Below, in pieces: positions 14,667 to 39,205 of a stretch of 64,000 nt of DNA. Within the stretch, counting starts at the first letter, position 1. Every line of letters begins with the position of its first letter. The DNA comes from Elusimicrobiota bacterium (lineage in GTDB: Bacteria > Elusimicrobiota > Elusimicrobia > F11): assembly GCA_044221725.1 (NCBI GenBank), contig JBGAON010000002.1, positions 481,455 through 545,454 on the forward strand, in the 5' to 3' direction. The position numbers were made by a program, and so were the translations under genes. Below the pieces are notes generated by a model that saw nothing but the letters and a program-made list of their open reading frames with translations, had not been told where the DNA came from and did not search any database.

Positions 14667-14667
14667 A

Positions 14668-19350: not shown

Positions 19351-21108
19351 ATGGGTGTTCGGTATCTCAACTCAGCTCGCAAACGACTCGGTGATTATCT
19401 CGTTGAACTGGGATTTATAACGGAGGAACAACTCGAGGTCGCTCTTCGCGAACAAAAAGACAAAGGCGGAAAACTTGGATCCATCCTGATTCAGCTCGGA
19501 ATTCTGTCGGAGGACATTTTACTGGCGATTCTTGGCAAGCAATCGGGCGTCTCCTACGTGTCACTGGAAGAGTACGGAGAGATTCCTGATGAAGCGATTC
19601 AAACCGTTCCAGAAACAATCGCGCGTAACCAGATGCTTGTTCCGATTAAGAAAGAGGGGAATCTGTTAACGATCGCCATTGCGGATCCACTGAACGTTTT
19701 TGCAACAGACGATCTCAAACTTTTAACCGGATGTGACATTCGCATGGTGGTCGCATCCGATAACGAGATCAAAGCTGCGCTTGAGAAGTACTATCAGAAA
19801 AGAAGGCCCAAAAAATCGGAAATGCCGATGCACGAGGAAGCCGCGGAAATGAATCTCGCGGAAGCATCGGGGGCCGCCGATATTGAGATTGTTCGCGAGT
19901 CGTTTGATGTTGAGGGGGATGGCGAGGGCGCGCCCGCCGTGAAAGTCGCGAATTTTATTTTGGCGGATTCCGTCCGGAAAGGGGCCAGCGATATCCACAT
20001 CGAACCGCTCGAAACGAAAATTGTGGTTCGATTCCGAATTGACGGCGTTCTGCAAGTTCAACCGTCACCACCGAAGAAAGTTCAGAGTTCACTTATCTCC
20101 CGTATAAAAATTATGGGCGACATGGATATTTCGGAGCGCCGCGTGCCCCAGGACGGCCGCACGAAGATTCAAGTTGAAGGTCGCATGCTTGATATCCGTA
20201 TTTCGACCATTCCCACCGTTTACGGCGAAAAAATCGTGATGCGATTACTCGATCCCCAAGGCTTGCAACTCGACCTGAGCCAGCTGGGATTTGATCAACG
20301 CGAGCTAACGGTTTTTAAAAGAAATATTCATGCGGCGAACGGAATGATTCTCGTAACGGGCCCAACCGGTTCTGGTAAAACCACGACGCTGTATTCGGCA
20401 TTGTCGATATTGAACGAACCCGACACAAACATCATCACGATTGAAGATCCAGTCGAATATATCTTGCCAGGAATTAATCAGGTACAAGCAAAGCCCGACA
20501 TTGGTCTCACGTTTGCGACCGGGCTGCGTGCTTTTTTGCGCCAAGATCCCGACGTCATCATGGTCGGTGAAATCCGTGACAAAGAAACCGGCGAAATTGC
20601 TGGCAATGCCGCTTTAACCGGCCACCTCGTGTTGGCCACGTTGCACACAAACGATGCCCCGAGCACGGTGGTACGCCTTTTGAACATGGGGGTCGAACCC
20701 GTTCTCATTTCAGCAACGTTGAGAATGGTCATTGCTCAGCGCTTGCTGCGACGTATTTGCAGCGGTTGCAAGGTCCCATACAAGATGAGCGGCGGGGAAT
20801 TGGCAGCACTTGGTGTACAGGTTTCCGTTGAAACGACAGCCGAAGTGACCGTTTATAAAGGGACCGGCTGCGACGTCTGTCACAAATCGGGTTACAAAGG
20901 ACGCGTCGGTGTTTATGAAGTGATGGAATTGAGCGATGAGATGAAGCAATTAATCGTTAGGAAAGCGTCGCCCTCTGAAATTCGTATGGCCGCGTCACGA
21001 ACGGGAGTTGAAACGCTTCGGGAAGTGGCCGTTAAAAAAATGTTGGCTGGACTTACGACCTTGGACGAAGTCGTTCGCGTGACGGTAGCGGACAATAACG
21101 CGGAGTGA
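19351..21108 (+). CDS. pilB: Type IV pilus assembly ATPase PilB (GspE family with N-terminal MshEN domain)
   Basis: 585 aa. The N-terminus carries two 24-residue MshEN motifs: RLGDYLVELGFITEEQLEVALREQ and KLGSILIQLGILSEDILLAILGKQ. Then GspE N2 and ATPase domains with Walker A GPTGSGKTT and a tetracysteine Zn motif (CSGC...CDVC). Confidence 0.93.
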   Translation: MGVRYLNSARKRLGDYLVELGFITEEQLEVALREQKDKGGKLGSILIQLGILSEDILLAILGKQSGVSYVSLEEYGEIPDEAIQTVPETIARNQMLVPIKKEGNLLTIAIADPLNVFATDDLKLLTGCDIRMVVASDNEIKAALEKYYQKRRPKKSEMPMHEEAAEMNLAEASGAADIEIVRESFDVEGDGEGAPAVKVANFILADSVRKGASDIHIEPLETKIVVRFRIDGVLQVQPSPPKKVQSSLISRIKIMGDMDISERRVPQDGRTKIQVEGRMLDIRISTIPTVYGEKIVMRLLDPQGLQLDLSQLGFDQRELTVFKRNIHAANGMILVTGPTGSGKTTTLYSALSILNEPDTNIITIEDPVEYILPGINQVQAKPDIGLTFATGLRAFLRQDPDVIMVGEIRDKETGEIAGNAALTGHLVLATLHTNDAPSTVVRLLNMGVEPVLISATLRMVIAQRLLRRICSGCKVPYKMSGGELAALGVQVSVETTAEVTVYKGTGCDVCHKSGYKGRVGVYEVMELSDEMKQLIVRKASPSEIRMAASRTGVETLREVAVKKMLAGLTTLDEVVRVTVADNNAE

Positions 21109-21111
21109 TCA

Positions 21112-22197
21112 ATGATTAATATGAGCGATCTTCTATTAATGATGGTGCAGAAACGCGCATCGGATCTTCACCTCACCTCGGGCACCTCACCAATGCTGCG
21201 CATCGATGGACAAGTGACGGCAACGCCGTTCGAAAAATTAACGCCGGATATTTGTCAGCGTTTAATTTACTCGTTGCTTACCGATCAACAACGGCAAGTT
21301 TTCGAAGCAAAAAGCGAACTTGATCTTTCCTTCGGCATCAAGGGCGTGGGGCGCGTAAGAATGAATGTATTTCGCCAACGTGGCAGCGTCGGGGCTGCGT
21401 TGCGGTCGATCCCATCGACGTTTATGACGTTTGAAGAACTCGGAATGTCGGATATTGTTTATGAAGTGGTCGGACGTCCCCGCGGGCTTGTGCTTGTGAC
21501 AGGGCCCACCGGATCGGGAAAATCGACCACGCTTGCTTCAATGATTGATTACCTTAATGAAAACCGATCAGGACACATAATCACAATAGAAGACCCGATC
21601 GAATATATTCACCATCATAAAAAGTGCATCATCAACCAACGCGAAATCGGACAAGACACAACAAGTTTTCCTTCGGCTTTAAAATACGTGCTTCGCCAAG
21701 ATCCCGACATCATCCTTATCGGCGAAATGCGAGACCTCGAAACGATTCAAGCAGCGATCACAATTGCGGAAACGGGTCACTTGGTGTTCGCCACGCTGCA
21801 CACAAACGATGCAAAGTCGACCATCAACCGCATCATTGATGTTTTTCCAGCACATCAGCAAAATCAGGTCCGTAACCAACTATCACTGGTTCTTAAGGCT
21901 GTATTCACACAGTCGCTTATTCCTCACGCGAATGGGACCGGGCGCGTTCTCTGCTGCGAGATTTTGATCGTTACTTCCGCCATCGAAAATCTTATCCGCG
22001 AAGGGAAAGTTGAACAGATTCCGATGCTCATGCAAACCGGTGGAAAATTTGGCATGCAAACCTTCAATCAAGCACTTGCCGATCTCGTCGCGAAACGAAA
22101 GATTTCTCAAAAACAAGCCGTGGAACACTCGTCGGACCCGGAAGAACTGATCAAATTGATTAACCAACGCACCGGCGCAGGTGCGACGAGAAGTTAG
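21112..22197 (+). CDS. pilT: Twitching motility retraction ATPase PilT
   Basis: 361 aa PilT/PilU-type hexameric ATPase with Walker A GPTGSGKST and the motif AHLVFATLHTNDA. Confidence 0.92.
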   Translation: MINMSDLLLMMVQKRASDLHLTSGTSPMLRIDGQVTATPFEKLTPDICQRLIYSLLTDQQRQVFEAKSELDLSFGIKGVGRVRMNVFRQRGSVGAALRSIPSTFMTFEELGMSDIVYEVVGRPRGLVLVTGPTGSGKSTTLASMIDYLNENRSGHIITIEDPIEYIHHHKKCIINQREIGQDTTSFPSALKYVLRQDPDIILIGEMRDLETIQAAITIAETGHLVFATLHTNDAKSTINRIIDVFPAHQQNQVRNQLSLVLKAVFTQSLIPHANGTGRVLCCEILIVTSAIENLIREGKVEQIPMLMQTGGKFGMQTFNQALADLVAKRKISQKQAVEHSSDPEELIKLINQRTGAGATRS

Positions 22198-22205
22198 GAG
22201 GATCT

Positions 22206-23429
22206 ATGCCAGCTTTTGCATACAAAGCGAAGATGCTTACGGGGGGAATGACCGAAGGGCTCATTGAAGCGTCCGACCAAAAAGCTGCGGTCGATCAACT
22301 TCGTGCACAAAAGCTCGTACCACTCGAAATCAACGAATCCGCGCCACCATTGTTTGAAAAAATCATGGCGTTTTTGCCGTTCAAGCCGACCGTTAAAGCA
22401 AAAGAACTTGTGCTTTTTTCTCGTCAACTTTCCACATTGGTGTCGGCCGGTGTCCCGCTCGTGCAGGGTCTCTCCATTCTTGAAGAACAAGTTGAAAGCA
22501 AGCTTTTCAAAAGCATCGTTCACCAAATAAAGGATGACATTGAAGCCGGGCAGTCCATTACGGACGCGCTTCGTAAACACCCCAACGCTTTTGAAGAACT
22601 TTATGTTTCAATGATCAAGGCCGGCGAAGTCGGCGGTATTCTCGATATTATTCTCGAACGTCTCTCGGCTTACTTGGAAGCAGCTGAAAATTTGAAAGGG
22701 AAAGTCAAAGGCGCGATGATGTATCCCTTGGTTGTCAGTATCATTGCAACGGCCGTCACGCTCTTCTTGTTGATGGGCGTAATCCCAACATTTTCATCCA
22801 TCTTCGCGGGATTTGGCGCGGAGCTGCCGTGGATCACTCAGCTCCTTATTAATGTGTCGTTTGGTTTGCGGCGCTTTTGGTTCTTGGTATTGGGCGCGCC
22901 CGTTATCGGGTTTGTTGTTTTGAAACAATACGCAAAGACGGAAATCGGACGTCGCAATCTCGACTCGGTTATGTTGAAACTCCCCATTTTCGGTGTACTG
23001 CTAAAGAAAGTTGCTGTTGCAAAATTTACACGCACGCTGGGCACCTTAATTAAATCTGGTGTTCCCATTCTGTCCGCTCTGGAAACGGTTGCAAAGACGT
23101 CCGGCAATCGTGTGATTGAAATCGCTATCATGACCGCTCGCGAATCCGTCAAGGAGGGCGAACGCATCGCCATCCAATTAAAAAAGGCCAATATTTTTCC
23201 GCCCATGGTTATCCAGATGGTCGCGATTGGAGAAGAAACTGGTAATCTCGATACCATGCTTGCCAAAATTGCCGACTTCTACGACCAAGAAGTTGACACC
23301 GCCGTTAAAGCCCTCACTTCCATGATTGAACCGATCATCATCGTGGTTATGGGCGTCGTGATTGGATTCATTGTTATCGCGATGTTCTTGCCAATGTTCG
23401 AACTCGGAAGTTTGGCGGGCCGCGGCTAA
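22206..23429 (+). CDS. pilC: Type IV pilus platform protein PilC (GspF family)
   Basis: 407 aa with duplicated GspF domains and three or four TM helices. Confidence 0.92.
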   Translation: MPAFAYKAKMLTGGMTEGLIEASDQKAAVDQLRAQKLVPLEINESAPPLFEKIMAFLPFKPTVKAKELVLFSRQLSTLVSAGVPLVQGLSILEEQVESKLFKSIVHQIKDDIEAGQSITDALRKHPNAFEELYVSMIKAGEVGGILDIILERLSAYLEAAENLKGKVKGAMMYPLVVSIIATAVTLFLLMGVIPTFSSIFAGFGAELPWITQLLINVSFGLRRFWFLVLGAPVIGFVVLKQYAKTEIGRRNLDSVMLKLPIFGVLLKKVAVAKFTRTLGTLIKSGVPILSALETVAKTSGNRVIEIAIMTARESVKEGERIAIQLKKANIFPPMVIQMVAIGEETGNLDTMLAKIADFYDQEVDTAVKALTSMIEPIIIVVMGVVIGFIVIAMFLPMFELGSLAGRG

Positions 23430-23453: not shown

Positions 23454-25454
23454 ATGCGGCCCGCTCCTTCGTCTCTGCTGTTAGCGCTGTATGCTGCCGT
23501 ATTGACGACAATTATTCCTAGTTATTTTCTTGCCTATCCAATTCCGGATTTCCTAGCAAAAATCTCGTCGCTTCTTGGCGGAGTGCTCATATTTGTGCAA
23601 GCGCTTTGCTTGGGTCGCTTAATCCTGACGCGATTTGTGCCAGCGTCCCAACTTCAAGACAAAAGTAATGCGTTTCGATTGGTCTGTTCGGTATGGCTTG
23701 GAGTAGGCACAATGGGATTCGCCATTCTCATTCTCGGGTGGGCTATTCCGGGCGTGCTCACACCGAAGCTACTGCTCTTTAATATTGTCCTCACAATTCT
23801 AGTTTTGGTCCAAGCAAAGTCATTGCTAACCGGTTCATGCCGCCTGTTGCCAATGGAAATCGGTCTCGCATGGAAAGAAATTGTCATCTGCGGAATCATC
23901 GGTTGTGGATTGCTCGTCACGTTTGTTACGTGTTTCTCTCCGGTTACCTATTACGATTCCCTCGTGTACCATCTTGCCCTGCCGGGACTGTACGATCGGA
24001 TGGGAAGGGTCCAAATGATTCCGTCAAATCTTTATTCTTTTTTCCCGGCGTCCATTGAAATGATTTTCTTGTATGGCATAAATCAATTCCCAAATCCGGA
24101 GTACGTTATCAATGTATGGCAATGGCTCGTCACAGGCGCCTTAAGTATCGCGGTCGCCGAATGGACCTTTGAGCTTTGCGGAAAGAGGGCAGCGATAATT
24201 TCACTCGTTCTCTGGTGGACAATGCCCGCCGTGCTTTTGCTTACCACCGGAGCGTACGTCGATCTGCCGCTCGGCGGGTTCGTTTTCCTTAGCATGCGGT
24301 GTTTTCAATTTGGTCGCAATGAAAGCAACGCCAAATGGCTTGTTTTAAGTGGGCTCTTTTCCGGATTCGCAATGGCAACCAAATACACCGGCGCTGTTTG
24401 TCCAATTATTCTTACGTCCGTTTTGCTTTTCGATTTCGTTCGGTTCAAGAGAATTTCGATGCGCTTGGTGTGTTTGTTTGTCTTTTCAGCCGCTGTTCCT
24501 ATTGTGCCGTGGCTTGTCAAAAATTGGATGGCGATTGGAAACCCGGTTTTTCCTTTTCTTTACAAATGGCTCGGAGGCGCCGACGGTTGGACGGCCGAAA
24601 ACGCTGCAGGATATTTTCGGCAACTGACGGACTACGAAATGAAAAGCAGACTTTTTTTTGAATTGGCGCGTGCCCCTTGGAGTCTTGCCACGTCCGCAAC
24701 ACGGTTCGGCGGCGGATTTGACGTGCTCGGAGATTTCGGTTGGCCCTTGATCCTATTTTCCGCGCCGCTCGCCATTTTCTTATCTTATCGAACCGCGTCA
24801 GTGCGGTTTTTGACTCTGTTCAGTTTGATTCAATTTTTCATTTGGTTCTGCACCAAGCCGGTGTTCCGATTTCTTGTTCCATCTCTGCCCGTGGCGATTT
24901 TGTTAAGTGCAATTGCGATTAATCGGTTGACGAGCGACCCGCGCGCGCCCGTTCGCATTATCAGCTATTCATTGATCGCTCCGTGGTTAATTTCAAACTT
25001 TTTCCTGTACTGGTTTATTGTCCAAGGACTTCAACCCTTCTCGGTTTCGCTTGGCTACGAAACTCGAAACGAATATCTTTCTCGGCGTTTAAATTTTTAT
25101 CCCGTATTTGAACGCCTAAATTTAATGGATTCCCAAGAGAAGGTGTTTGTATTGGGGGAACAAAGAACCTTCCATTTATCGGTGCCGTTTGTTGCATCGA
25201 ATCTGTTTTCCGTTTCTCCTCTATCGTCGGTCAGCAACCGGGCACGGACCGATGAAGAAATCCTTAAATTTCTCGATTTGAACAAGATCTCATTCCTTCT
25301 TATTAATGAAGGGGAAATCGAGCGACTCGGAGGATACCGCAAATTTGGCTTTACAAATGAGGGCGAGCGCGCGCTGCGAGGGTTCGTTTCGCGTCACACC
25401 TCGCTAACTTTCGAGAATCGACGCGTTAATTTGTATCGAATCAACAACTATTGA
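23454..25454 (+). CDS. Large polytopic membrane protein, candidate GT-C-fold glycosyltransferase (ArnT/PMT-like) or O-oligosaccharyltransferase
   Basis: 666 aa with at least 12 predicted TM helices over about 500 aa, then a roughly 150-aa soluble C-terminal domain. There is an acidic loop motif after a TM helix ([12 protein letters not shown]), reminiscent of the DE/DD loop-1 motif of GT-C enzymes. It sits between pilC and pilA. The family assignment was made by eye only. Confidence 0.4.
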
Positions 25455-25479
25455 CAGCAAATTTTCCAGACGTTATACT
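25451..25479 (+). promoter_or_regulatory. Near-consensus sigma70 promoter of the pilin gene (TTGACA, 17 nt spacer, TATACT)
   Basis: -35 TTGACA at 25451-25456, a 17-nt spacer, then -10 TATACT at 25474-25479. This lies about 60 nt upstream of the pilA ATG, which is preceded by an AAGGAGG Shine-Dalgarno at 25524-25530. Confidence 0.6.
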
Positions 25480-25540
25480 GAAGCCATTGCAAGTAAAGCG
25501 CTTTAACACGCGATTACTTACAAAAGGAGGTCGACGTAAA

Positions 25541-26008
25541 ATGAGGAAAATGCTTAAAACAAAAGGGTTCACGCTCATCGAACTTATGATCGTTGTCGCT
25601 ATCATAGGTATTCTGGCCGCTGTGGCCATTCCTAAGTTCGCTGATCTCGTGACCAAATCCAAAGAAGCGTCCGTAAAGGGAAACCTAGGGTCTGTACGTA
25701 GTGCCGTTAGCATCTACTACGGCGACCTTGAAGGTCAATATCCGGCGAATCTTGCCGACGGCCTTGGAACGGGTGGCCGATATATGCCGCTTGTGAACGG
25801 TGTCGCCAGTCTTGGGACGATGGAAATTCCAAAAACGAGCGTGGGGGCCCCGGGCCATCCTTGGGGGAACGTTATTAACACCGAGGTCAGAGCAGCCGGA
25901 GCAGGTTCAATTGACACATCTGCGTTTCTATACAACTCGAATGATGGTAACGTTATGGTTGACTGTAGTCATCTCGATACCCGCAGCAGTCCTTGGTCCT
26001 CGTATTAA
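25541..26008 (+). CDS. pilA: Type IVa major pilin (PilA-like)
   Basis: The ATG at 25541 follows an AAGGAGG RBS. The class III leader is MRKMLKTKG, cleaved before [22 protein letters not shown], giving Phe+1 and Glu+5. The mature protein is about 146 aa with a single Cys and a Ser-rich C-terminal tail (TRSSPWSSY). Confidence 0.9.
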
Positions 26009-26036: not shown

Positions 26037-26072
26037 GAGGCACCCTTCAGAAGAAGGGTGCCTCTTTTTTTT
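26037..26072 (+). terminator. Rho-independent terminator after pilA
   Basis: A perfect 12-bp stem (GAGGCACCCTTC / GAAGGGTGCCTC) with a 4-nt loop is followed by a T9 run, directly after the pilA stop. Confidence 0.85.
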
Positions 26073-26888
26073 ACATTGATTTATTTCATTCTGTTTCTGT
26101 TCGGGCTGGAGTTCGGCAGCTTCGCGAACGTTTGTATTTATCGCTGGCCTTTAAACATGTCGATTGCTTATCCCATTCGTTCCTATTGTCCTTGGTGCAC
26201 AAGCCAAATTTCCTGGTACCACAACATTCCTGTTGTTAGCTATATTTTTCTTAAAGGTCATTGCGCAAAATGCGGGTCCACAATCGCGATGCGGTATCCA
26301 ATCATCGAACTGTTAACGAGCGCGTTATGGACGGCGTTTGGATTTGTTGTCGTGAAATCTGGCCAGACCTTTCCGATTCCCTTTTTAGCCTCTCTACTCG
26401 CAACCCTATTCATTATTGTTGTAACGACGGCCACAGATATTGACTGGAAAATAATTCCCAACGAAGCAACGTTTTTTCTTTTGGTAATCGGAATCTTGTT
26501 TGCTCCATGGAATACGTTTCTTGGTGGAGACGCAATTTTTACGCGGATCATTCACGCCGTGGCGGGCGCGGCGGCCGCGTCAATTCCTATGTGGGGAGTT
26601 TCCATCATCGGAAAAAAAATTCTTGGTCGGGATGCGTTTGGTGGCGGTGACATCAAGTTGCTTGCGTCGTTTGGAAGCATTCTCGGTTGGCAAAGTGTTC
26701 TCGGTGTCTTGTTATTCGCTGCCATCCTCGGTGGCCTTATCGCGATCATCGGATTGCTCTCGCATCTTTTAAAGCGCAGAGAGTATATTCCGTTTGGCCC
26801 GTTTCTAAACATTGCGTGCACCGCCGAAATATTTTTTCGCTGTTCCGGGCATTCCCTCGTCGATATTGGAAGAGTTTTTTTCTTATGA
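26058..26888 (+). CDS. pilD: Prepilin peptidase PilD (A24 family)
   Basis: N-terminal TM helix, a CxxC...CxxC zinc motif (CPWC...CAKC) and a multi-TM A24 peptidase body. The start is GTG at 26058 inside the terminator stem, or alternatively TTG at 26076. Confidence 0.88.
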   Translation: MPLFFTLIYFILFLFGLEFGSFANVCIYRWPLNMSIAYPIRSYCPWCTSQISWYHNIPVVSYIFLKGHCAKCGSTIAMRYPIIELLTSALWTAFGFVVVKSGQTFPIPFLASLLATLFIIVVTTATDIDWKIIPNEATFFLLVIGILFAPWNTFLGGDAIFTRIIHAVAGAAAASIPMWGVSIIGKKILGRDAFGGGDIKLLASFGSILGWQSVLGVLLFAAILGGLIAIIGLLSHLLKRREYIPFGPFLNIACTAEIFFRCSGHSLVDIGRVFFL

Positions 26889-26982: not shown

Positions 26983-28101
26983 ATGAAACTCGATATCAAG
27001 AACCTAAAATTGCCATCGCTTTCTTTCTTGCGTTCGAAAGATACGCTCGGAATCGATTTGGGTTCCACCTCGCTAAAGATCGTTCAGATATCCGACCGCC
27101 GACTTGTTCGCTGGGCTTACAAAGAGTTGGATTTAAAAGATGCGGGCCCCGATACACAAGCCGCCGACCGAATGGCCACGCTAACACAAATGCTGCAAAC
27201 GTTTTTTTCTGAAGAACGAAAAGCGCCGAAGGTCGGCGCCATCTCCGTCAGTGGCAATTCTGTTATCGTTAGATACGTGAAACTTCCGAAGCTCACCCGA
27301 GCCGAACTCGAAAAAACAATTCAGTTTGAAGCAGAGCCCTATATCCCATTTGCAATTCCAGAGGTAAACATGGGTTTTCACATTCTTGGCGATGTCGTCG
27401 AAGATGGCCAACCCAAAATGGAAACGGTTCTCGTGGCCGCGAAAAAGGAACTTATCGACCAGCGTTTAAACGTTTTAACTTCTGTCGGAGTGCGCCCGGT
27501 CATCGTGGATGTGGATGCGTTCGCCATGGAAAGCGCTTACGCCCTGAGTCAGGGAGGAATGCAATCCCAGGAAACAGCGTTGTTAATCAACATTGGCGCG
27601 AACGTGACCACCATGATTATCATGGAAAATGGGCTTTCGCGGGTTGTTCGAGACGTCTTCATCGCGGGCAATACGATAAACAAATCATTACAAAGAATTT
27701 TTGATTGTTCCTTCGAAGAAGCTGAGAAACTAAAACGCAAAGGACAAATTCTCGTCACGCCAGATGAAAAAGAAGCCACCTTGGCCCAAGATGACCAGGA
27801 TTCGCTGCAAATCTCAAACACGATCGTCACGGTGATGAAGGATCTCGTCTCGGAGATTCAGCGATCCCTCGATTTTTTCTTGTCCCAAAATCCTGATCGC
27901 CAAGTGAACCGTATCATGCTCTGCGGCGGCTCCTGTGCGATCAATGGCCTGGACCGGTATTTTTCCCAGGAATTGCGATTAAATGTCGAGCTTTTTGATC
28001 CGTTCGCGAGTCTCGTTGGATCGAACCTTCCGGATCCCAGTCTCAGGCCGGCATTTGCGATCGCGGTTGGACTCGCTTCACGAACAGAGGGTGACATTTG
28101 A
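26983..28101 (+). CDS. pilM: Type IV pilus assembly protein PilM (actin-like ATPase fold)
   Basis: 372 aa with PilM-type N-terminus LGIDLGSTSLKIVQI. Followed by pilN-pilO-pilP-pilQ. Confidence 0.9.
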   Translation: MKLDIKNLKLPSLSFLRSKDTLGIDLGSTSLKIVQISDRRLVRWAYKELDLKDAGPDTQAADRMATLTQMLQTFFSEERKAPKVGAISVSGNSVIVRYVKLPKLTRAELEKTIQFEAEPYIPFAIPEVNMGFHILGDVVEDGQPKMETVLVAAKKELIDQRLNVLTSVGVRPVIVDVDAFAMESAYALSQGGMQSQETALLINIGANVTTMIIMENGLSRVVRDVFIAGNTINKSLQRIFDCSFEEAEKLKRKGQILVTPDEKEATLAQDDQDSLQISNTIVTVMKDLVSEIQRSLDFFLSQNPDRQVNRIMLCGGSCAINGLDRYFSQELRLNVELFDPFASLVGSNLPDPSLRPAFAIAVGLASRTEGDI

Positions 28102-28682
28102 TCCTTATTAATTTATTACCACCGGAGTACGCGGCTGCCCAACAAAAAAAGGAACAACAGGTGGTTTTGGGATCGGTTTGCGGACTCGTTGTTTGCTTTT
28201 TACTTTTATTCTGGTTTGTAGAAGCGCGGAAAGCGGCAAGACTTGAGACCCAGATCACCGAGGCAGAAGCGGAACTCCGGAAGTACCAAGCGATTATTTC
28301 ACAGATCGAGTCGATTGAAACCAACAAAAAACAGCTGACAGCCAAACGCGATGTGATCCGAAATCTTAACCGCAGTCGTTTAATCTATCCGGTATTTTTT
28401 GAAGATCTGCTTCCGATTATTCCCTCTGACGTCTGGGTCACAAACGTTCAAATAAACGACCAGTCCGGTTCCATGAGGGTCTCGATGAATTCAAATGCGT
28501 TGTCCAACTTTGCGTTGGCGACGTGGCTCACCAATCTTCAACAGTCGACACACTTCAAGGACGTTGAATTGACCTCACCAATCTCCTATACGACTGCCGA
28601 CAATGGCAGCCAGACATTGAGTTTTTCAATCTCCTGCGCGTACCAACACCAGGGGCCCTTCCCGCTTCAGGAGTTCAACTAA
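28098..28682 (+). CDS. pilN: Type IV pilus assembly protein PilN
   Basis: 194 aa with the N-terminal motif INLLPPE, a single TM helix and a coiled coil. The start overlaps the pilM stop. Confidence 0.85.
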   Translation: MILINLLPPEYAAAQQKKEQQVVLGSVCGLVVCFLLLFWFVEARKAARLETQITEAEAELRKYQAIISQIESIETNKKQLTAKRDVIRNLNRSRLIYPVFFEDLLPIIPSDVWVTNVQINDQSGSMRVSMNSNALSNFALATWLTNLQQSTHFKDVELTSPISYTTADNGSQTLSFSISCAYQHQGPFPLQEFN

Positions 28683-29245
28683 TGGGAAAGCTTTCTAAAC
28701 AACAGCAACAAATGATCGTGGCCGGTCTTTTGTTTCTCGTGGGTGGCGGATACATTTATTGGAATTACATGCTGAAACCCACTCTTGAAAATATTCGGAC
28801 TCGCGAAGCAAAATATCAGGACTTGCTTGCAAAAATAGATTCGGCCGAGCGACAGGCGCGACGGTTGCCAGCGCTTCAAAATGAATTGGCCAGCCTCCAA
28901 TTGGAATTGGCTTCGCTCGAGAAACAGCTCCCGAAGGACAAAGATCTTCCAAATATCATCCGTACGCTTACCCGAGAAGCCATTCAAGAGAATTTGCAAT
29001 TCGTTCAACTCGATCCTCAAAAGCCATCCAAGCAGCAATATTTTGAGATTCTTCCGTTCAACGTTAAATTTTCGGGTACGCTTCACGCGCTCGCGAGGTT
29101 TTTGGCTTCTCTCGGGCAGCAAGACCGAATTTTCCAAGCTCAAAATGTAATGCTGGTTCCGGGGGGGAACCAATCGGACTCTTCTCAAGGAATCGTTTCT
29201 TTGAGTATCTCATTAACCATTCAAACGTATGCGTATGCTGGATAA
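28682..29245 (+). CDS. pilO: Type IV pilus assembly protein PilO
   Basis: 187 aa with an N-terminal TM helix, a coiled coil and a PilO-like periplasmic domain. Conserved operon position. Confidence 0.8.
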   Translation: MGKLSKQQQQMIVAGLLFLVGGGYIYWNYMLKPTLENIRTREAKYQDLLAKIDSAERQARRLPALQNELASLQLELASLEKQLPKDKDLPNIIRTLTREAIQENLQFVQLDPQKPSKQQYFEILPFNVKFSGTLHALARFLASLGQQDRIFQAQNVMLVPGGNQSDSSQGIVSLSISLTIQTYAYAG

Positions 29246-29714
29246 AAAACGAACCGTTCTGCTCTTATTAATCGCGACGAGCATCATCGGCTGCGGCAAG
29301 AAAGCAAAGGTTGCTCAGGCACCGACTCCCGCGTCAACGCCCATTCCGACGCCCACTCCTGTATCTCAAGAATTGAAAGAGAAGCCCGTGTACGTTTATT
29401 CTGGAGACCGGTTCAGAGATCCGTTTATGCCGGCGGGGCAATCCGCGAACTACCAGCCAGATGCTGTTTTCGATCCGCAACGCGCTTCTGTCAAAGGAAT
29501 TATTTTTGGAACCGACTATAAATCGGCGGTTCTTATGGTTGGAGGCACCGGAAGCTACTTTGTGAAATCCGGAAAGATTTTCGACATCATGGGAAAAACA
29601 GTGGAAGGATATTCGGCGAAAATTTTCGTTGATAAAGTTGTTTTGCTCGGCGAAGCCGACAACGTGTTTGAACTGAAAATAAAGAACACCGATGAGGAGG
29701 CAAAAGCATTATGA
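29229..29714 (+). CDS. pilP: Type IV pilus assembly lipoprotein PilP
   Basis: 161 aa with a lipobox (LLIATSIIGC), a Pro/Thr-rich linker and a C-terminal beta domain. Overlaps pilO by 17 nt. Confidence 0.8.
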   Translation: MRMLDKKRTVLLLLIATSIIGCGKKAKVAQAPTPASTPIPTPTPVSQELKEKPVYVYSGDRFRDPFMPAGQSANYQPDAVFDPQRASVKGIIFGTDYKSAVLMVGGTGSYFVKSGKIFDIMGKTVEGYSAKIFVDKVVLLGEADNVFELKIKNTDEEAKAL

Positions 29715-31450
29715 AGATTTATCAAAAACCTTTCCTCGCGATATTTTTGATATCGCAAATCGTCCTTGCAAATTTGCAAGGCGATCCGTCCTCCGGAGTT
29801 CCCGCGCTCACGAGCCTAAAGGCCGAGGGCGACAAGGTCACGATTAGCTTGAGTCAACTGATGCCCTATGACGTGTTCACGCTTACGTCTCCGCAACGTC
29901 TCGTGGTGGAAATCCCTGGAGTCCTTTACAAGGCAGGCATTAGCAAGAAGAACGTGGAAGGGGGGCTGGTGCGTCGCATCCGAGGCTATCAATTTAAGGA
30001 AAATCCTCTTATTTCGCGCGTCGTGATCGATCTCTCCTATCCCGTCGACTACAAAACCACCGCGGAAAACAACGAGATCGTTCTCTCGATGACGAAAAAT
30101 GCGAACGCGGTTAACGACGATTCGGAGAAGAAACCCCTCTCTGCCAAAGGCGAACGCACGCGCAAGCAGCGCGATCTGTTGGCCAGCCTTCCCAAAGAAG
30201 AAGTGACACTCGATTTTGAAGGGGCCGATATTCGCGACGTGATTCGTCTGATGGCGGAAACAAGCAACATTAATATTATTTTCGGTTCCGAAGTCGCCGG
30301 AACAATCGCGGTTCACCTGAAGAAGGTTCCGTTTGATGAAGCGTTTAGTACGATCATGAATCTTAAAGGACTGGTTCCGACTCAGCTCGGAGCAAATATT
30401 TTGCGCGTGACGACGCCGGATATCCTTCAGAAGGAACGTCAGAAAGCCGTCATGTTTACGAAAACCATTCCAATCAATTATTTAAAAGCAGATGACATGA
30501 TGAAGCACATCCAAGCCGTCATGACATCAGCGGGTCGAAAAGGAACGTTGACGGTAGCATCCGAAAACAACAGTCTCGTTATTACGGATTCGGAGGAAGG
30601 CATTCAGCAAGCCGAACGATTAATCGCGCAGCTCGATAGAAAGCCAAAACAGGTGATGATTGAAGCGCGTATTGTCGAGATTAACTTGAACAATGGTTTT
30701 GACATGGGCGTTCAGTGGGAATATGCAAATCAGTCCATTGATACCAACGCAGCAGGAACCGTGATCAATGGAGTTAAAGAAATCGGCGGAATTACAGACG
30801 ACGATGCTCTTTCGCGAATTCAACATTCGTTTGACGGAGGCACCACAAAATTTGGAGCGTTTACACCGCCGAACGGTACCGGCGTTGCGTTGCCTGGTCC
30901 TACCAGTGCCGCGATAACGTTTGGAATCGTAAAAGCGAACCGGATTCTCGACGTCAGCTTGCAGGCCTTGGTAACACAAAGCAAAGCGAAAATTTTGTCC
31001 GCACCAAAAGTCGTAACGATCAATGGAGAGTCCGCCAAAATTCAGGCGGTTCAAGATATTCGATTCAAGACATCGACGGTTTCGAACGGCGTTGTTTCCA
31101 GCGATTTTAAAACGGTGAGCGCCGGTATCATTCTTACGGTCACTCCCACGATAAATGCCGAAGATCGCATTACTTTGAAAATTAACCCGGAATCAAGCTT
31201 CCCGACCCAAGAGAGCACGGATGCGGGTCCTATCATTCGTACGCGCACAGCCCAAACAACGGTTGTGATCCGCGATGGCGACACGCTGGTCATCGGCGGC
31301 CTCATCGACGATCAAGACACGAAAGGGGTGAACAAAGTTCCGTTGCTCGGAGACATCCCAATTCTTGGCGCGTTCTTCCGCTCAACCACCACGAAAAAGA
31401 TACGTAACGAGCTTCTCGTGTTCGTCACACCGCGAATCGTTCGAGAATAA
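29711..31450 (+). CDS. pilQ: Type IV pilus secretin PilQ
   Basis: 579 aa with a signal peptide, an AMIN-like N-terminal domain, N0/N1 domains and a C-terminal secretin domain with the motif VPLLGDIPILGAFFR. Confidence 0.92.
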   Translation: MKIYQKPFLAIFLISQIVLANLQGDPSSGVPALTSLKAEGDKVTISLSQLMPYDVFTLTSPQRLVVEIPGVLYKAGISKKNVEGGLVRRIRGYQFKENPLISRVVIDLSYPVDYKTTAENNEIVLSMTKNANAVNDDSEKKPLSAKGERTRKQRDLLASLPKEEVTLDFEGADIRDVIRLMAETSNINIIFGSEVAGTIAVHLKKVPFDEAFSTIMNLKGLVPTQLGANILRVTTPDILQKERQKAVMFTKTIPINYLKADDMMKHIQAVMTSAGRKGTLTVASENNSLVITDSEEGIQQAERLIAQLDRKPKQVMIEARIVEINLNNGFDMGVQWEYANQSIDTNAAGTVINGVKEIGGITDDDALSRIQHSFDGGTTKFGAFTPPNGTGVALPGPTSAAITFGIVKANRILDVSLQALVTQSKAKILSAPKVVTINGESAKIQAVQDIRFKTSTVSNGVVSSDFKTVSAGIILTVTPTINAEDRITLKINPESSFPTQESTDAGPIIRTRTAQTTVVIRDGDTLVIGGLIDDQDTKGVNKVPLLGDIPILGAFFRSTTTKKIRNELLVFVTPRIVRE

Positions 31451-36949: not shown

Positions 36950-39205
36950 ATGCGAAAAAAACTACTCCTAACCTTCCTCCCACTTGCCCTTATTCCATTA
37001 ATAGGAGCAGGACTCCTCTCGTTTAGCCTCGCAAAAAAAGCTCTTACCCAAAAAGCGTTTAATCATCTCGAATCGATTTCGTCTTTGCAGCAAAGCCGCA
37101 TCGAAAGTTTTCATGATCGAAATCTTGAACGATTCGGTCTGTTGGTCGACCGTATTCTGCTGCGCGTTATTGTCGACCATTATTTACCATTCCCAACACA
37201 AACCGACCATCAACGCCTCAATGAACTTCTCAATCGAACGAAACAATCGGCGCCAGACTTTAAGTCGATTTCTATTTTATCAGCCAGCGGCAAAGTTATT
37301 TCTTCGACGGATCCACGTCGAATAAATCGCGACTATTCATCGAATCCTTTCTTTCTCCGCGGCAGAAAGTCCAATGATTTTGATGCGATCGATTTGGATC
37401 AAAATGGGGAGTTTAATACGTACTTCATTGGGCCTTTGATTCAGGATGGAACGCTCATCGGCGTGTTGCTCATCGAAGAAAATATGGATCAATTGTATCC
37501 GTGGATAAAAGATTTCTCCGGTCTCGGCCAGACCGGCGAGTCTTATATCGTTAAACCGTTGCCCCGCGGTGGAATTGTATATTTAACATCCTTGCGGTTT
37601 GATTCCTCGGCTGTAATGAAAACGAACGTCCGCCGCGAAGAGATATCACCACTTTCCAATCCAGCCGACGCTTCATTCGATCACCCGACCTTTGGAATCG
37701 ACTATCGCTCACAGCCCGTTATTTCACTGGCGCGTTTTCTGCACCGACTAAATTGGGTTCTCGTTGTAAAAATCGATCAGCGCGAAGCGTTCCAGTCCGT
37801 CATGGAACTTCGAAATTGGTTTTTGTTGTTCTTTTTGTTCTCGGCAATTTCAGTGACGGTGCTGGCGCATTTTCTTGCAAAATCGATTGTCGAACCGATG
37901 CGTCAGTTGACACGTATGGCAGAGGAGGTCCAAAGCGGTAAGCCCCCGATCACGGCTCCAATTTATTATCAGAAAAACGAATTGGGAGTGCTCGCAAAAG
38001 CTTTCATTAATTCGGCCGCAAATCTGTTGAGAATTAAAGAGGAACTGGAGTTGAAGGTGAGCGAGCGCATGGTCGAACTCAAACAATCGCGCTCGTTCCT
38101 GAATTCTGTCATTGAGAACATACCCAACATGATATTTGTGAAGGACGCGGAGGATTTGCGCTTCGTGACGTTTAACAAAGCCGGCGAGGAATTGTTGGGA
38201 CTCGAACGATCCTCGTTGATTGGAAAAAATGATTTTGATTTCTTCCCGAAGGAGGAGGCTGCATTTTTCGTAAAAAAAGATCGCGAAGTTCTCAACAACC
38301 GCCGCCTGGTGGACATTTCCGAGGAACCTATTCACACGAAAAAAGGCATTCGAATTCTTCACACAAAGAAAATCCCAATCATGGATGAAAACAATAGCCC
38401 AAAATATCTTTTGGGCATTTCCGAAGACATCACGGAACGAAAAAAAACGGAAGAAACGTTGATTCAGAAACAGGCCGAACTGGCCCGTTCAAACGCGGAA
38501 AGAGAACAATTGGAACTATTTGCATCCGTGGCCGCCCACGATCTGCAGGAACCGTTGAAGAAAATCGTGGCTTTCGGCGACTTGCTTCGCATGGAGGCCG
38601 CCCAGTCACTGAGCAGCGAAGCCGCGGACTATCTCGAACGTATGAGGAGCGCGGCCCGACGTATGAGCGAGCTTATTTCGGACCTTTTAAAGTTTTCGCG
38701 CATGACGACACATCAGGATGTCTACGAGATCGTGAATGTCGAACACCTTCTCACGGAACTGCTATCGGACCTTGAAATTCAGATCGCGGAGTCGCGGGCC
38801 GAGATCGAAATCGGTCAAATGCCCATTCTCAAAGTAAACCGTGTGCAGTTTCGAGAGGTTTTTCAGAATTTGATTAGCAACGCCATAAAGTTTCGACAAA
38901 AAACGCGGTCGCCCCAGATTCGTATCGCGAGCAAAATGGAAACCGACGGCATTAATATTTTAGTTTCAGATAACGGAATTGGATTCGATGAAAAATTCTC
39001 AGAAAGAATCTTTCGGCCATTCGAACGCCTGCACAGACGAAGCGAATACAAAGGGAGCGGCGTGGGATTGGCAATTTGTCAACGAATCATTGCCAATTAT
39101 GGTGGGAGAATTTCCGTGAAGAGCATCATCGGCGACGGAACGACGTTTACGATTCATCTGCCCGGTGCTCTTTTGGCGAAAGAAAACGTGGTTGCTGCGA
39201 ACTGA
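36950..39205 (+). CDS. Sensor histidine kinase (periplasmic Cache-like sensor, HAMP, PAS, HisKA, HATPase)
   Basis: 751 aa. TM1, a roughly 260-aa periplasmic domain, TM2, a HAMP-like linker and a PAS domain. The H-box is FASVAAHDLQEPL. The C-terminal ATPase has N, G1 and G2 boxes (DNGIGF, GSGVGLA). Confidence 0.88.
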   Translation: MRKKLLLTFLPLALIPLIGAGLLSFSLAKKALTQKAFNHLESISSLQQSRIESFHDRNLERFGLLVDRILLRVIVDHYLPFPTQTDHQRLNELLNRTKQSAPDFKSISILSASGKVISSTDPRRINRDYSSNPFFLRGRKSNDFDAIDLDQNGEFNTYFIGPLIQDGTLIGVLLIEENMDQLYPWIKDFSGLGQTGESYIVKPLPRGGIVYLTSLRFDSSAVMKTNVRREEISPLSNPADASFDHPTFGIDYRSQPVISLARFLHRLNWVLVVKIDQREAFQSVMELRNWFLLFFLFSAISVTVLAHFLAKSIVEPMRQLTRMAEEVQSGKPPITAPIYYQKNELGVLAKAFINSAANLLRIKEELELKVSERMVELKQSRSFLNSVIENIPNMIFVKDAEDLRFVTFNKAGEELLGLERSSLIGKNDFDFFPKEEAAFFVKKDREVLNNRRLVDISEEPIHTKKGIRILHTKKIPIMDENNSPKYLLGISEDITERKKTEETLIQKQAELARSNAEREQLELFASVAAHDLQEPLKKIVAFGDLLRMEAAQSLSSEAADYLERMRSAARRMSELISDLLKFSRMTTHQDVYEIVNVEHLLTELLSDLEIQIAESRAEIEIGQMPILKVNRVQFREVFQNLISNAIKFRQKTRSPQIRIASKMETDGINILVSDNGIGFDEKFSERIFRPFERLHRRSEYKGSGVGLAICQRIIANYGGRISVKSIIGDGTTFTIHLPGALLAKENVVAAN

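What the first reader, a model, noticed from the sequence alone, without database searches (positions are those of the whole stretch)
19384..19542. PilB carries two intact MshEN-type c-di-GMP-binding motifs
Residues 12-35 (RLGDYLVELGFITEEQLEVALREQ) and 41-64 (KLGSILIQLGILSEDILLAILGKQ) match the 24-residue tandem consensus RLGxx(L/V/I)(L/V/I)xxG(F/I/L)(L/V/I)xxxxLxxALxxQ. That consensus defines the high-affinity c-di-GMP receptor domain of MshE/PilB-type ATPases. It predicts c-di-GMP-gated pilus extension. A REC-GGDEF-EAL regulator and its Cache/PAS kinase sit about 16 kb downstream, next to the glycan genes, and are a plausible input.
Basis: partly seen in the sequence, partly recalled or inferred. 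Interest (0 to 1): 0.55.

Follow-up and report, generated by a model that had tools for sequence, protein, structure and literature searches.

The report
PilB pilus ATPase with c-di-GMP sensor

Summary
Window 19384-19542 encodes residues 12-64 of a 585-aa PilB (19351-21108, +). These form two 24-residue motifs joined by a 5-residue spacer, the 53-residue MshEN_N architecture.

- Motif I fits the strict published consensus. Motif II starts with Lys, not Arg, and fits only the extended (R/K/L) consensus.
- The segment aligns without gaps to V. cholerae MshE. Every ligand-contacting residue is kept except R38, which is K41 here.
- NCBIfam's curated 53-position c-di-GMP motif model matches residues 12-64 end to end (67 bits, cut-off 38).
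- An AlphaFold model of residues 1-150 has c-di-GMP-bound MshE (5HTL) as its best PDB match (TM 0.76/0.82).
- In the 29 closest full-length homologues this segment is the most conserved part of the protein.
- The gene heads a complete type IVa pilus cluster.

PilB is therefore very probably a c-di-GMP receptor. That binding gates pilus extension is inferred by analogy, and outcomes differ among studied species.

The Cache/PAS kinase and REC-GGDEF-EAL regulator downstream exist and look catalytically intact. Their closeness to the pilus genes is not seen at their nearest homologue, so a dedicated link is unsupported.

Verdict: new member of a known kind, low interest.

The parts
19351..21108 (+). 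pilB, type IVa pilus assembly (extension) ATPase, 585 aa
   Evidence: ORF. Pfam T2SSE matches residues 194-576 (E 1e-135) and PF05157 matches residues 66-152. The best NCBIfam hit is TIGR02538 type_IV_pilB at 660 bits, just under the equivalog cut-off of 675.65. Walker A (GPTGSGKT), Walker B (DPDVIMVGEIRD), the His box (GHLVLATLHTND) and the CxxC...CxxC tetracysteine are readable in the translation.
19384..19455 (+). MshEN motif I (residues 12-35, RLGDYLVELGFITEEQLEVALREQ)
   Evidence: Matches the strict published consensus. Aligns to MshE R9-Q32 without gaps.
19456..19470 (+). 5-residue spacer (KDKGG)
   Evidence: Same length as in MshE. All 63 homologues in which the relaxed tandem pattern was found have a 5-residue spacer.
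19471..19542 (+). MshEN motif II (residues 41-64, KLGSILIQLGILSEDILLAILGKQ)
   Evidence: Has K in place of R at position 1 and otherwise fits the consensus. Fits the extended (R/K/L) consensus. Aligns to MshE R38-Q61. K41 is invariant in the 29 closest homologues.
19546..19806 (+). MshEN C-terminal subdomain (GSPII / T2SSE_N fold, residues 66-152)
   Evidence: Pfam PF05157 matches residues 66-152, E 2e-19. The model shows an alpha/beta subdomain.
19930..21078 (+). N2 and C-terminal ATPase domains (T2SSE, residues 194-576)
   Evidence: Pfam PF00437, 452 bits.
21112..22197 (+). pilT, retraction ATPase
   Evidence: TIGR01420 pilT_fam, 497 bits against a cut-off of 319.
22206..23429 (+). pilC, platform protein
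   Evidence: Pfam T2SSF matched twice. NCBIfam PilC models are the best hits.
23454..25454 (+). GT-C/PMT_2-like membrane protein inside the pilus cluster
   Evidence: Pfam PMT_2, E 1.7e-9. The same position is occupied in the relative L045.
25451..26008 (+). pilin with prepilin N-methylation motif
   Evidence: Pfam N_methyl and TIGR02532.
26058..26888 (+). pilD, prepilin peptidase
   Evidence: Pfam A24_N_bact and Peptidase_A24.
26983..29245 (+). pilM, pilN, pilO
   Evidence: Pfam PilM_2, PilN and PilO.
29229..29714 (+). PilP-like protein, assigned by position and a signal-like hydrophobic N-terminus with Cys only
   Evidence: ORF. No Pfam hit.
29711..31450 (+). pilQ, secretin with AMIN domain
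   Evidence: Pfam Secretin, Secretin_N and AMIN.
36950..39205 (+). Sensor histidine kinase (dCache-HAMP-PAS-HisKA-HATPase)
   Evidence: The dCache hit (44.2 bits) is just under its cut-off of 45.
39207..40901 (+). REC-GGDEF-EAL response regulator, a possible but unproven source or sink of c-di-GMP
   Evidence: Pfam domains. GGDEF, the RxxD I-site and the N/D guanine-binding residues align to PleD. EFLSR, DDVGFG, KIDK and EGIE are read from the sequence. The ATG lies 1 nt after the kinase stop codon.

Best explanation
Residues 12-64 of PilB form the N-terminal four-helix subdomain of an MshEN (GSPII) domain. This subdomain binds one molecule of c-di-GMP.

**Predicted binding mode, by homology to MshE and PilF GSPII-B**
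- Each 24-residue helix-turn-helix motif holds one guanine.
- Two triangular leucine clusters cover the two guanine bases: L13, L57 and L61 form one, and L42, L28 and L32 the other.
- The first residue of each motif (R12, K41) stacks on the other face of its base.
- G14 and G43 allow close approach of the ligand.
- Q35 and Q64 hydrogen-bond the ribose-phosphate backbone.

**Predicted role**
PilB is the extension ATPase of a complete type IVa pilus machine. Ligand occupancy of its N-terminal domain is expected to couple the cell's c-di-GMP level to pilus assembly and pilus-dependent behaviour (adhesion, twitching). The most likely direction is promotion of extension at high c-di-GMP, as in V. 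cholerae MshE.

**Shown versus inferred**
- Shown here: the motif, its register, its conservation, the predicted fold and the pilus context.
- Inferred: binding itself, its affinity and the direction of the effect.
- The c-di-GMP pool may come from any cyclase in the genome. The REC-GGDEF-EAL regulator in the window is one candidate among possibly several.
For: - The sequence and coordinates are exact.
- Residues 6-66 align without gaps to MshE (5HTL) residues 3-63. The correspondences are R12=R9, L13=L10, G14=G11, D15=D12, G21=G18, L28=L25, Q35=Q32, K41=R38, G43=G40, G50=G47, L57=L54, L61=L58 and Q64=Q61. The roles of these residues are taken from PMC5013675.
- NCBIfam NF053729 'cyclic di-GMP-binding domain, MshE-related' matches residues 12-64 over profile positions 1-53 of 53, at 67.1 bits against a cut-off of 38.
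- The AF2 model of residues 1-150 (pLDDT 74.5) has four helices at residues 13-19, 25-38, 42-48 and 54-64.
- The best PDB matches of the model are 5HTL 'MshE with cdg' (TM 0.76/0.82, rmsd 2.7 over 140 columns). The c-di-GMP-bound PilF GSPII-B structures also score TM about 0.75/0.80.
- Lys at motif position 1 is tolerated. In PilF GSPII-B, wild-type K167 gives KD 6 nM and K167R gives 150 nM.
- In the 29 closest homologues (67-100% identity), 21 of the 22 key positions carry allowed residues in every sequence that has a residue there. The exceptions are position 51, which also takes Y or H, and one N-terminally truncated sequence. The 53-residue segment is the most conserved region, at 89% mean identity against 76% for the ATPase and 35% for the linker.
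- The motif occurs nowhere else in the window and is not expected by chance.
- The gene heads a complete pilus cluster, pilB-pilT-pilC-...-pilQ. The cluster is syntenic in a relative with 80% identical PilB.
- A GGDEF enzyme with canonical active-site residues is encoded in the window, so c-di-GMP turnover is plausible in this organism.
Against: - There are no biochemical data for this protein or for any Elusimicrobiota PilB. Literature searches found none.
- Motif II has K41 instead of Arg. Lys has been tested only at motif I of PilF, not at motif II.
- Model confidence is moderate (no residue reaches pLDDT 90), and the model contains no ligand.
- The Pfam 'MshEN' model covers only residues 66-152 and says nothing about the ligand site.
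- The functional consequence differs among studied systems. There was no effect on the ATPase rate in C. perfringens PilB2, and the phenotypes in M. xanthus are complex.
- In Thermus PilF, loss of binding reduced twitching and adhesion by only about 40% and left transformation unchanged.
Confidence: 0.8

Rival explanations
1. PilB binds c-di-GMP, but the signal does not gate extension. Instead it controls PilB stability, or a second output such as surface glycan or exopolysaccharide production, with PilB acting as a signalling protein as proposed for Myxococcus xanthus.
For: - M. xanthus PilB regulates exopolysaccharide and binds c-di-GMP through MshEN. Motif mutants change PilB levels (titles of PMC5544727 and PMC6957770).
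- Glycosyltransferase genes lie directly downstream of pilQ, and a GT-C-like gene lies inside the pilus cluster.
Against: - No homologue of the M. xanthus EPS pathway was identified here.
- Adjacency of glycan genes alone is weak evidence.
- V. cholerae MshE and Thermus PilF show effects on pilus-dependent phenotypes.
Confidence: 0.12
2. The motifs are kept for structural or partner-binding reasons (the four-helix bundle of the N1 domain contacting PilM or PilC), and the domain does not bind c-di-GMP, or binds it only weakly.
For: - Related domains with similar folds do not bind. XpsE and PilF GSPII-A are examples, and GSPII-A has a nearly perfect motif I.
- K41 departs from the original consensus.
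Against: - The known non-binders carry several substitutions at key positions. XpsE has G11V, R38G, G40L, L54H, L58C and Q61V, and GSPII-A motif II is only 45% identical at key positions.
- This protein has none of these changes.
- The Gln and Gly residues, which act in ligand contact rather than core packing, are invariant in the clade.
Confidence: 0.05
3. The physiological ligand is another cyclic dinucleotide, such as 3'3'-cGAMP, rather than c-di-GMP.
For: The section 9 heading of PMC5013675 states that MshEN can also bind cGAMP.
Against: - The only cyclase in the window keeps PleD's guanine-binding residues N335 and D344, seen as NDTLGHAVGD aligned to NDTFGHDIGD. From background knowledge (Hallberg et al. 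2016), cGAMP-making Hypr GGDEF enzymes replace that Asp with Ser or Thr.
Confidence: 0.03

Closest known systems
Vibrio cholerae MshE N-terminal domain (MshEN, PDB 5HTL; Wang et al. 2016, PMC5013675)
   Same: - Two 24-residue motifs with a 5-residue spacer, forming the 53-residue domain.
- A gap-free alignment over 61 residues.
- All ligand-contacting Leu, Gly and Gln residues are identical.
- It is the best structural match (TM 0.76/0.82).
- The domain is fused to a type IV pilus extension ATPase.
   Different: - Motif II starts with Lys (K41) where MshE has R38.
- The host system is a canonical type IVa pilus cluster with pilT and pilMNOPQ, not the MSHA pilus.
- Identity over the domain is about 38%.
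Thermus thermophilus PilF GSPII-B domain (PDB 8PDK and others; PMC11731258)
   Same: - An MshEN-like domain on a PilB-family ATPase.
- Lys at the first position of a motif.
- c-di-GMP-bound structures match the model at TM about 0.75/0.80.
   Different: - PilF has three tandem GSPII domains; this PilB has one.
- In PilF the Lys is in motif I and motif II starts with Leu. Here Arg is in motif I and Lys in motif II.
- PilF motif II is one residue shorter.
PilB of Myxococcus xanthus, Chloracidobacterium thermophilum and Geobacter (PDB 3JC8, 5TSG, 5ZFR)
   Same: - The same one-MshEN-plus-ATPase architecture.
- The closest full-length solved relatives over residues 1-150 (E 1e-26 to 1e-31).
- PilB of M. 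xanthus and C. thermophilum binds c-di-GMP.
   Different: - Geobacter PilB has a 7-residue spacer.
- M. xanthus motif I has N in place of the turn Gly, and its motif II begins RIG.
- This protein is closer to the textbook consensus than either.
Xanthomonas/Pseudomonas PilB with the FimX-PilZ adaptor, and XpsE/GspE
   Same: A homologous N-terminal GSPII fold (7LKM TM 0.69; 2D28 TM 0.62).
   Different: Those N-domains have degenerate motifs and do not bind c-di-GMP themselves, relying on adaptors (PMC8389850 title). Here the motifs are intact, and none of the ORFs scanned against Pfam in this window showed a PilZ domain.

Membership tests
MshEN c-di-GMP-binding domain (Wang et al. 2016) | Two copies of the 24-residue motif RLGxx(L/V/I)(L/V/I)xxG(L/V/I)(L/V/I)xxxxLxxxLxxQ | tested here: met
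   Motif I meets the strict pattern used in the scan, which allows F at position 11 as in the bracketed version of the motif in the paper's text. Motif II meets the extended (R/K/L) and relaxed [RKPN] versions, with K at position 1.
MshEN c-di-GMP-binding domain (Wang et al. 2016) | Motifs joined by a 5-residue spacer into a 53-residue unit, in register with MshE residues 9-61 | tested here: met
   The spacer is KDKGG. Query residues 6-66 align without gaps to MshE residues 3-63.
MshEN c-di-GMP-binding domain (Wang et al. 2016) | Score above the curated cut-off of the NCBIfam domain model NF053729 (c-di-GMP_motif) | tested here: met
   67.1 bits against a cut-off of 38. Residues 12-64 match profile positions 1-53 of 53.
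MshEN c-di-GMP-binding domain (Wang et al. 2016) | Four-helix N-subdomain plus alpha/beta C-subdomain fold as in 5HTL | tested here: met
   The AF2 model has pLDDT 74.5. The top Foldseek hit is 5HTL at TM 0.76/0.82. Model confidence is moderate.
MshEN c-di-GMP-binding domain (Wang et al. 2016) | Measured high-affinity binding of c-di-GMP | not testable with these tools
   Requires ITC, DRaCALA or DSF on purified protein.
Type IVa pilus assembly ATPase PilB | T2SSE ATPase core with Walker A, Walker B, His box and tetracysteine motif | tested here: met
   Pfam PF00437, 452 bits. The motifs are read directly in the translation.
Type IVa pilus assembly ATPase PilB | Score above the TIGR02538 equivalog cut-off | tested here: inconclusive
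   660.2 bits against a cut-off of 675.65. It is the best-scoring family, ahead of GspE at 590 bits.
Type IVa pilus assembly ATPase PilB | Genomic context with pilT, pilC, pilin, prepilin peptidase, pilMNOP and the secretin pilQ | tested here: met
   The order is conserved in L045.
Active diguanylate cyclase / phosphodiesterase (the REC-GGDEF-EAL regulator proposed as input) | GG(D/E)EF active site, guanine-binding N/D residues, RxxD I-site and REC phospho-acceptor Asp | tested here: met
   Alignment to PleD (1W25): RATDHAARIGGDEF against RAIDLPCRYGGEEF, NDTLGHAVGD against NDTFGHDIGD, and LLDLFLPDSDG against LLDVMMPGMDG.
Active diguanylate cyclase / phosphodiesterase (the REC-GGDEF-EAL regulator proposed as input) | EAL catalytic residues (ExLxR, N, ExxE, DD, KxD, E, Q) | tested here: inconclusive
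   EFLSR, FNLF, EISE, DDVGFG, KIDK, EGIE and GQG were read by eye in the translation. Pfam EAL scores 117 bits. No residue-level alignment to a characterised EAL enzyme was inspected.
   The nearest regulator homologue (P0128, 68%) keeps the kinase but lies by pst, ppk and CYTH genes, with no pilus genes in the 10 kb upstream. Loci of homologues in other phyla carry no pilus genes. No regulator homologue has a longest-contig length equal to that of the long contigs carrying close PilB relatives.

The most novel reading that the evidence does not exclude
The Lys at position 1 of motif II is invariant in this Elusimicrobiota clade and present in 51 of the 63 homologues in which the tandem pattern was found. 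It could tune the domain to low-nanomolar c-di-GMP affinity, as Lys in place of Arg does at motif I of Thermus PilF. PilB would then be saturated at very low messenger levels. Alternatively, the adjacent kinase/REC-GGDEF-EAL pair could supply a private c-di-GMP pool that coordinates pili with the neighbouring glycan genes. Neither reading is excluded, and neither has positive support beyond the residue identity and gene proximity.
Probability: 0.1. Interest if true: 0.3.

Novelty: new member of a known kind. Interest (0 to 1): 0.14.

Why it matters
It gives a sound functional annotation: this organism's type IV pilus motor is very probably wired directly to c-di-GMP. It also supplies a c-di-GMP receptor for a poorly studied, mostly uncultured lineage; relatives are labelled Elusimicrobia or Elusimicrobiota. 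It does not change what is known about MshEN domains, PilB or c-di-GMP signalling. Wang et al. (2016) already reported more than 10,000 such proteins across bacterial lineages, and NCBI has a curated model that recognises this exact 53-residue unit.

Tried and rejected
1. **Chance or mis-framed motif: rejected.** The motif lies in the long pilB frame, is unique in the six-frame translation, and never appears in the shuffles for the strict and extended patterns.
2. **Pfam as a test of the ligand site: not informative.** The PF05157 'MshEN' model covers only residues 66-152. The NCBIfam motif model was used instead.
3. **Conserved linkage of the REC-GGDEF-EAL regulator with pilus genes: none found.**
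   - Scans of genome contigs and metagenome contigs returned only homologues of 56% identity or less over the full length, or fragments.
   - tblastn with all proteins of the window's pilus and glycan clusters found no pilus genes at the four loci examined, L001, L002, L003 and L007.
   - The protein-database search gave a 68% homologue in a different neighbourhood.
4. **Naming the source organism: not possible.** The exact look-up showed the proteins come from a 673,615-bp NCBI contig, but no name or accession was returned. The lineage is inferred from the names of homologues.
5. **c-di-GMP riboswitches or other RNAs: none.** No Rfam match reached the gathering threshold anywhere in the window.
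6. **Other c-di-GMP components in the window (PilZ, HD-GYP, further GGDEF or EAL): none.** This holds for the ORFs scanned against Pfam. ORFs under about 150 aa were not scanned exhaustively.
7. **Literature linking Elusimicrobia to pilus or c-di-GMP regulation: none found**.
Full report
**1. The observation**

The region lies in a 585-aa ORF at 19351..21108 on the + strand. Translating from the ATG gives three parts:
- residues 12-35, RLGDYLVELGFITEEQLEVALREQ (nt 19384-19455);
- residues 36-40, KDKGG (nt 19456-19470);
- residues 41-64, KLGSILIQLGILSEDILLAILGKQ (nt 19471-19542).

The consensus defined by Wang et al. 2016 is RLGxx(L/V/I)(L/V/I)xxG(L/V/I)(L/V/I)xxxxLxxxLxxQ. Two copies are joined by five non-conserved residues into a 53-residue domain (PMC5013675).

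Motif I matches the strict pattern. Motif II departs at one position, Lys41 where the consensus has Arg. It still fits the relaxed search pattern [RKPN]hGxxhhxx[GAS]hhxxxxhxxxhxx[QNKRYWST] of the same paper. It also fits the extended consensus (R/K/L)LG... proposed from the Thermus PilF GSPII-B structures (PMC11731258).

In a six-frame translation of all 64 kb, these are the only two matches to the strict, extended or relaxed patterns. Residue-shuffled translations gave 0 matches per shuffle for the strict and extended patterns and 0.085 for the relaxed one. The tandem has an analytic per-position probability of about 1e-19.

**2. What the protein is**

- Pfam finds the T2SSE ATPase core at residues 194-576 (452 bits). 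It also finds PF05157 at residues 66-152.
- PF05157 is now named 'MshEN' but covers only the C-terminal subdomain. It does not cover the ligand-binding helices, so a Pfam hit alone says nothing about c-di-GMP binding.
- The best NCBIfam family is TIGR02538, type IV-A pilus assembly ATPase PilB, at 660 bits. This is just under the equivalog cut-off of 675.65 and ahead of GspE at 590 bits.
- Walker A, Walker B, the His box and the CxxC...CxxC zinc motif are all readable in the translation.

The gene heads a complete type IVa pilus cluster, all on the + strand:
- pilB, pilT (21112-22197) and pilC (22206-23429);
- a GT-C/PMT_2-like membrane protein (23454-25454);
- a pilin (25451-26008) and the prepilin peptidase (26058-26888);
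- pilM, pilN and pilO (26983-29245);
- a PilP-like protein, assigned by position only (29229-29714);
- the secretin pilQ with an AMIN domain (29711-31450).

The same order, including the upstream lpxI-...-recG-coaD-pta genes, is found around a PilB with 80% identity on a 267-kb contig (L045).

Named homologues are labelled Elusimicrobia or Elusimicrobiota. The exact protein is on a 673,615-bp NCBI contig for which no name was returned.

**3. Is the N-terminus a true MshEN ligand site?**

Four independent tests agree.

*(a) Alignment to the prototype.* Residues 6-66 align without a gap to V. cholerae MshE (PDB 5HTL) residues 3-63. Position by position the correspondences are R12=R9, L13=L10, G14=G11, D15=D12, G21=G18, L28=L25, Q35=Q32, K41=R38, G43=G40, G50=G47, L57=L54, L61=L58 and Q64=Q61.

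In the MshE structure these residues have defined roles:
- the leucines form the two triangular clusters that cover the guanines;
- the Gly of 'RLG' cannot be enlarged, since G11L and G40I show little or no binding;
- the turn glycines separate the helices;
- the two Gln residues hydrogen-bond the ribose-phosphate.

The substitutions that disable XpsE are G11V, I19R, L29R, R38G, G40L, L54H, L58C and Q61V. None is present here.

*(b) Curated motif model.* NCBIfam NF053729 is 'cyclic di-GMP-binding domain-containing protein, MshE-related', a 53-position model. It matches residues 12-64 over positions 1-53 at 67.1 bits against a cut-off of 38.

*(c) Predicted structure.* An AlphaFold2 model of residues 1-150 was built on 23 homologues. 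It has mean pLDDT 74.5 and helices at 13-19, 25-38, 42-48 and 54-64, followed by an alpha/beta subdomain. Its best PDB match is 5HTL, 'MshE with cdg' (E 2e-11, TM 0.76/0.82, rmsd 2.7 Å over 140 columns, 38% identity). The c-di-GMP-bound PilF GSPII-B structures also match at TM about 0.75/0.80. The non-binding Xanthomonas PilB N-domain and XpsE score lower, at TM 0.57-0.69.

*(d) Conservation.* The 29 closest full-length homologues are 67-100% identical.
- In them, 21 of the 22 key positions carry allowed residues in every sequence that has a residue there. The exceptions are position 51, which also takes Y or H, and one N-terminally truncated sequence.
- K41 is invariant.
- The 53-residue segment is the most conserved part of the protein: 89% mean identity, against 85% for the C-subdomain, 76% for the ATPase and 35% for the linker.
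- By contrast, a more distant subclade (about 52% identity, 24 of 77 sequences) has G43E. The same distant set also shows L57I/M and L61V in similar numbers. This is the pattern expected where binding has been lost. The motif is therefore not an automatic by-product of the fold.

**4. The Lys at motif II**

Lys at the first motif position has been examined directly in Thermus PilF GSPII-B. K167 (motif I) stacks its methylene chain on the guanine. The wild type binds with KD 6 nM, K167R weakens this to 150 nM, and K167L gives 2 nM. The authors extend the consensus to (R/K/L).

Lys has not been tested at motif II. PilF carries Leu there, and L196R weakens binding four-fold. K41 is thus compatible with binding and may even raise affinity, but that is extrapolation.

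**5. Mechanism**

*Shown here:* a canonical 53-residue MshEN_N unit, in register and under purifying selection, sits on the extension ATPase of a complete type IVa pilus machine.

*Inferred:* it binds one c-di-GMP and couples messenger level to pilus-dependent behaviour. The direction is by analogy only:
- In V. cholerae, binding to MshE is needed for MSHA pilus function, and extension is favoured at high c-di-GMP.
- In C. perfringens PilB2, binding does not change the ATPase rate.
- In M. xanthus, motif mutants alter motility, piliation, biofilm and PilB level in complex ways (review PMC11656802).
- In T. thermophilus, loss of binding reduces twitching and adhesion by about 40% but not DNA uptake.

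I put about 0.8 on 'binds c-di-GMP and modulates pilus function'. I put roughly 0.5-0.6 on the narrower 'high c-di-GMP promotes extension'.

**6. The proposed input**

The sensor kinase (36950-39205) has dCache, HAMP, PAS, HisKA and HATPase_c domains. The dCache hit is just under its cut-off. The REC-GGDEF-EAL regulator follows it. The ORF listing starts it at a GTG at 39165, but the likely start is the ATG at 39207, one base after the kinase stop codon.

Aligned to PleD, the regulator keeps four features:
- the phospho-acceptor Asp;
- the guanine-binding N and D residues (NDTLGHAVGD);
- the RxxD inhibitory site (RATD);
- GGDEF itself.

The EAL half reads EFLSR, EISE, DDVGFG, KIDK and EGIE by eye. 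Both activities are therefore plausible and the net output is unknown.

The regulator starts 18.1 kb after the pilB stop.

Specific coupling to PilB is not supported:
- The pair lies between a glycosyltransferase cluster (31.5-36.9 kb) and yceD-rpmF-plsX-fabHDG-fabF, outside the pilus operon.
- The closest regulator homologue (68% identity) keeps the kinase plus an extra stand-alone REC. It sits beside pst, ppk and CYTH genes, with no pilus genes in the 10 kb upstream.
- Homologues in other phyla have no pilus genes nearby.
- None of the 120 best homologues has a longest-contig length equal to that of the long contigs carrying close PilB relatives. This is an indirect test.
- In V. cholerae the evidence favours global rather than private c-di-GMP pools for MshE.

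The regulator is a legitimate candidate source or sink and nothing more.

**7. Comparison and novelty**

This protein works like MshE, PilB of M. xanthus and C. thermophilum, and PilF GSPII-B, and it is a member of that family. It passes every sequence and structure test I could run. Binding itself is the only untested defining feature.

Wang et al. already reported more than 10,000 MshEN proteins across bacterial lineages, many in pil and gsp operons. A curated NCBI model recognises this exact unit. I found no paper on c-di-GMP control of pili in Elusimicrobia, so the lineage is new, but the biology is not.

Verdict: new member of a known kind, interest about 0.14.

The most novel reading not excluded has two forms. 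The clade-invariant K41 could give unusually high affinity, or the neighbouring two-component cyclase could form a private circuit with PilB and the glycan genes. Its probability is about 0.1, and its interest would be modest even if true.

Noticed in passing
window 23454-25454 (+): A 666-aa GT-C/PMT_2-like membrane protein sits between pilC and the pilin gene. It has a weak match to the NCBIfam LIC_10190 family. The same position is occupied in a relative with 80% identical PilB (L045 14386-16077). It may be a pilin glycosyltransferase.
   Followed up: partly
window 18405-19349 (+): A phosphate acetyl/butyryl-transferase (PTA_PTB) gene ends one nucleotide before the pilB start codon. The coaD-pta-pilB order is conserved in L045. 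A metabolic gene translationally abutting the pilus motor gene is unexplained.
   Followed up: partly
homologues P0085-P0120, aligned: A subclade of PilB homologues (about 52% identity, 24 of 77 distant sequences) has Gly to Glu at position 3 of motif II (RLE...). The same distant set also shows L57I/M and L61V in similar numbers. This predicts loss of c-di-GMP binding in that lineage while the rest of the domain is kept.
   Followed up: partly
window 19546-19806 versus 19384-19542: Pfam PF05157, now named 'MshEN', matches only residues 66-152 (the C-subdomain) and not the 53-residue ligand motif. A Pfam 'MshEN' annotation therefore does not report on c-di-GMP binding. NCBIfam NF053729 does.
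   Followed up: yes
L044 7317-11674: The nearest homologue of the REC-GGDEF-EAL regulator (68%) has an extra stand-alone REC gene between kinase and regulator. It lies next to pst transporter, polyphosphate kinase and CYTH genes, and a RES-Xre toxin-antitoxin pair follows it.
   Followed up: no
window 14569-15714 (+): A 381-aa ORF between thiG and recG has no Pfam or NCBIfam match. Its listed start overlaps the end of thiG, so the real start is probably later. An unannotated 270-aa gene occupies the same place in L045.
   Followed up: no
window 25451-26008 (+): The prepilin N-methylation motif lies at residues 35-60 of the listed pilin ORF. The TTG start is therefore probably too far upstream. 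The relative's pilin is 159 aa.
   Followed up: no
window 1-64000: Nearly all credible genes are on the + strand: tamB-bamA-skp-lpxD-lpxC-lpxA-lpxI-lpxB-msbA, the pilus cluster, glycan genes, fatty-acid synthesis, rnc, etfBA, smc, riboflavin genes, ligA and purH. No Rfam family reaches its gathering threshold anywhere in the 64 kb.
   Followed up: partly
window 31527-36884 (+): A glycan cluster lies directly after pilQ: a GT2, an LPG_synthase_TM-like membrane protein, a WecA/MraY-type GT4, a flavin amine oxidase-like protein and a GT1. Its product, and any relation to the pili or the adjacent kinase, are unknown.
   Followed up: no
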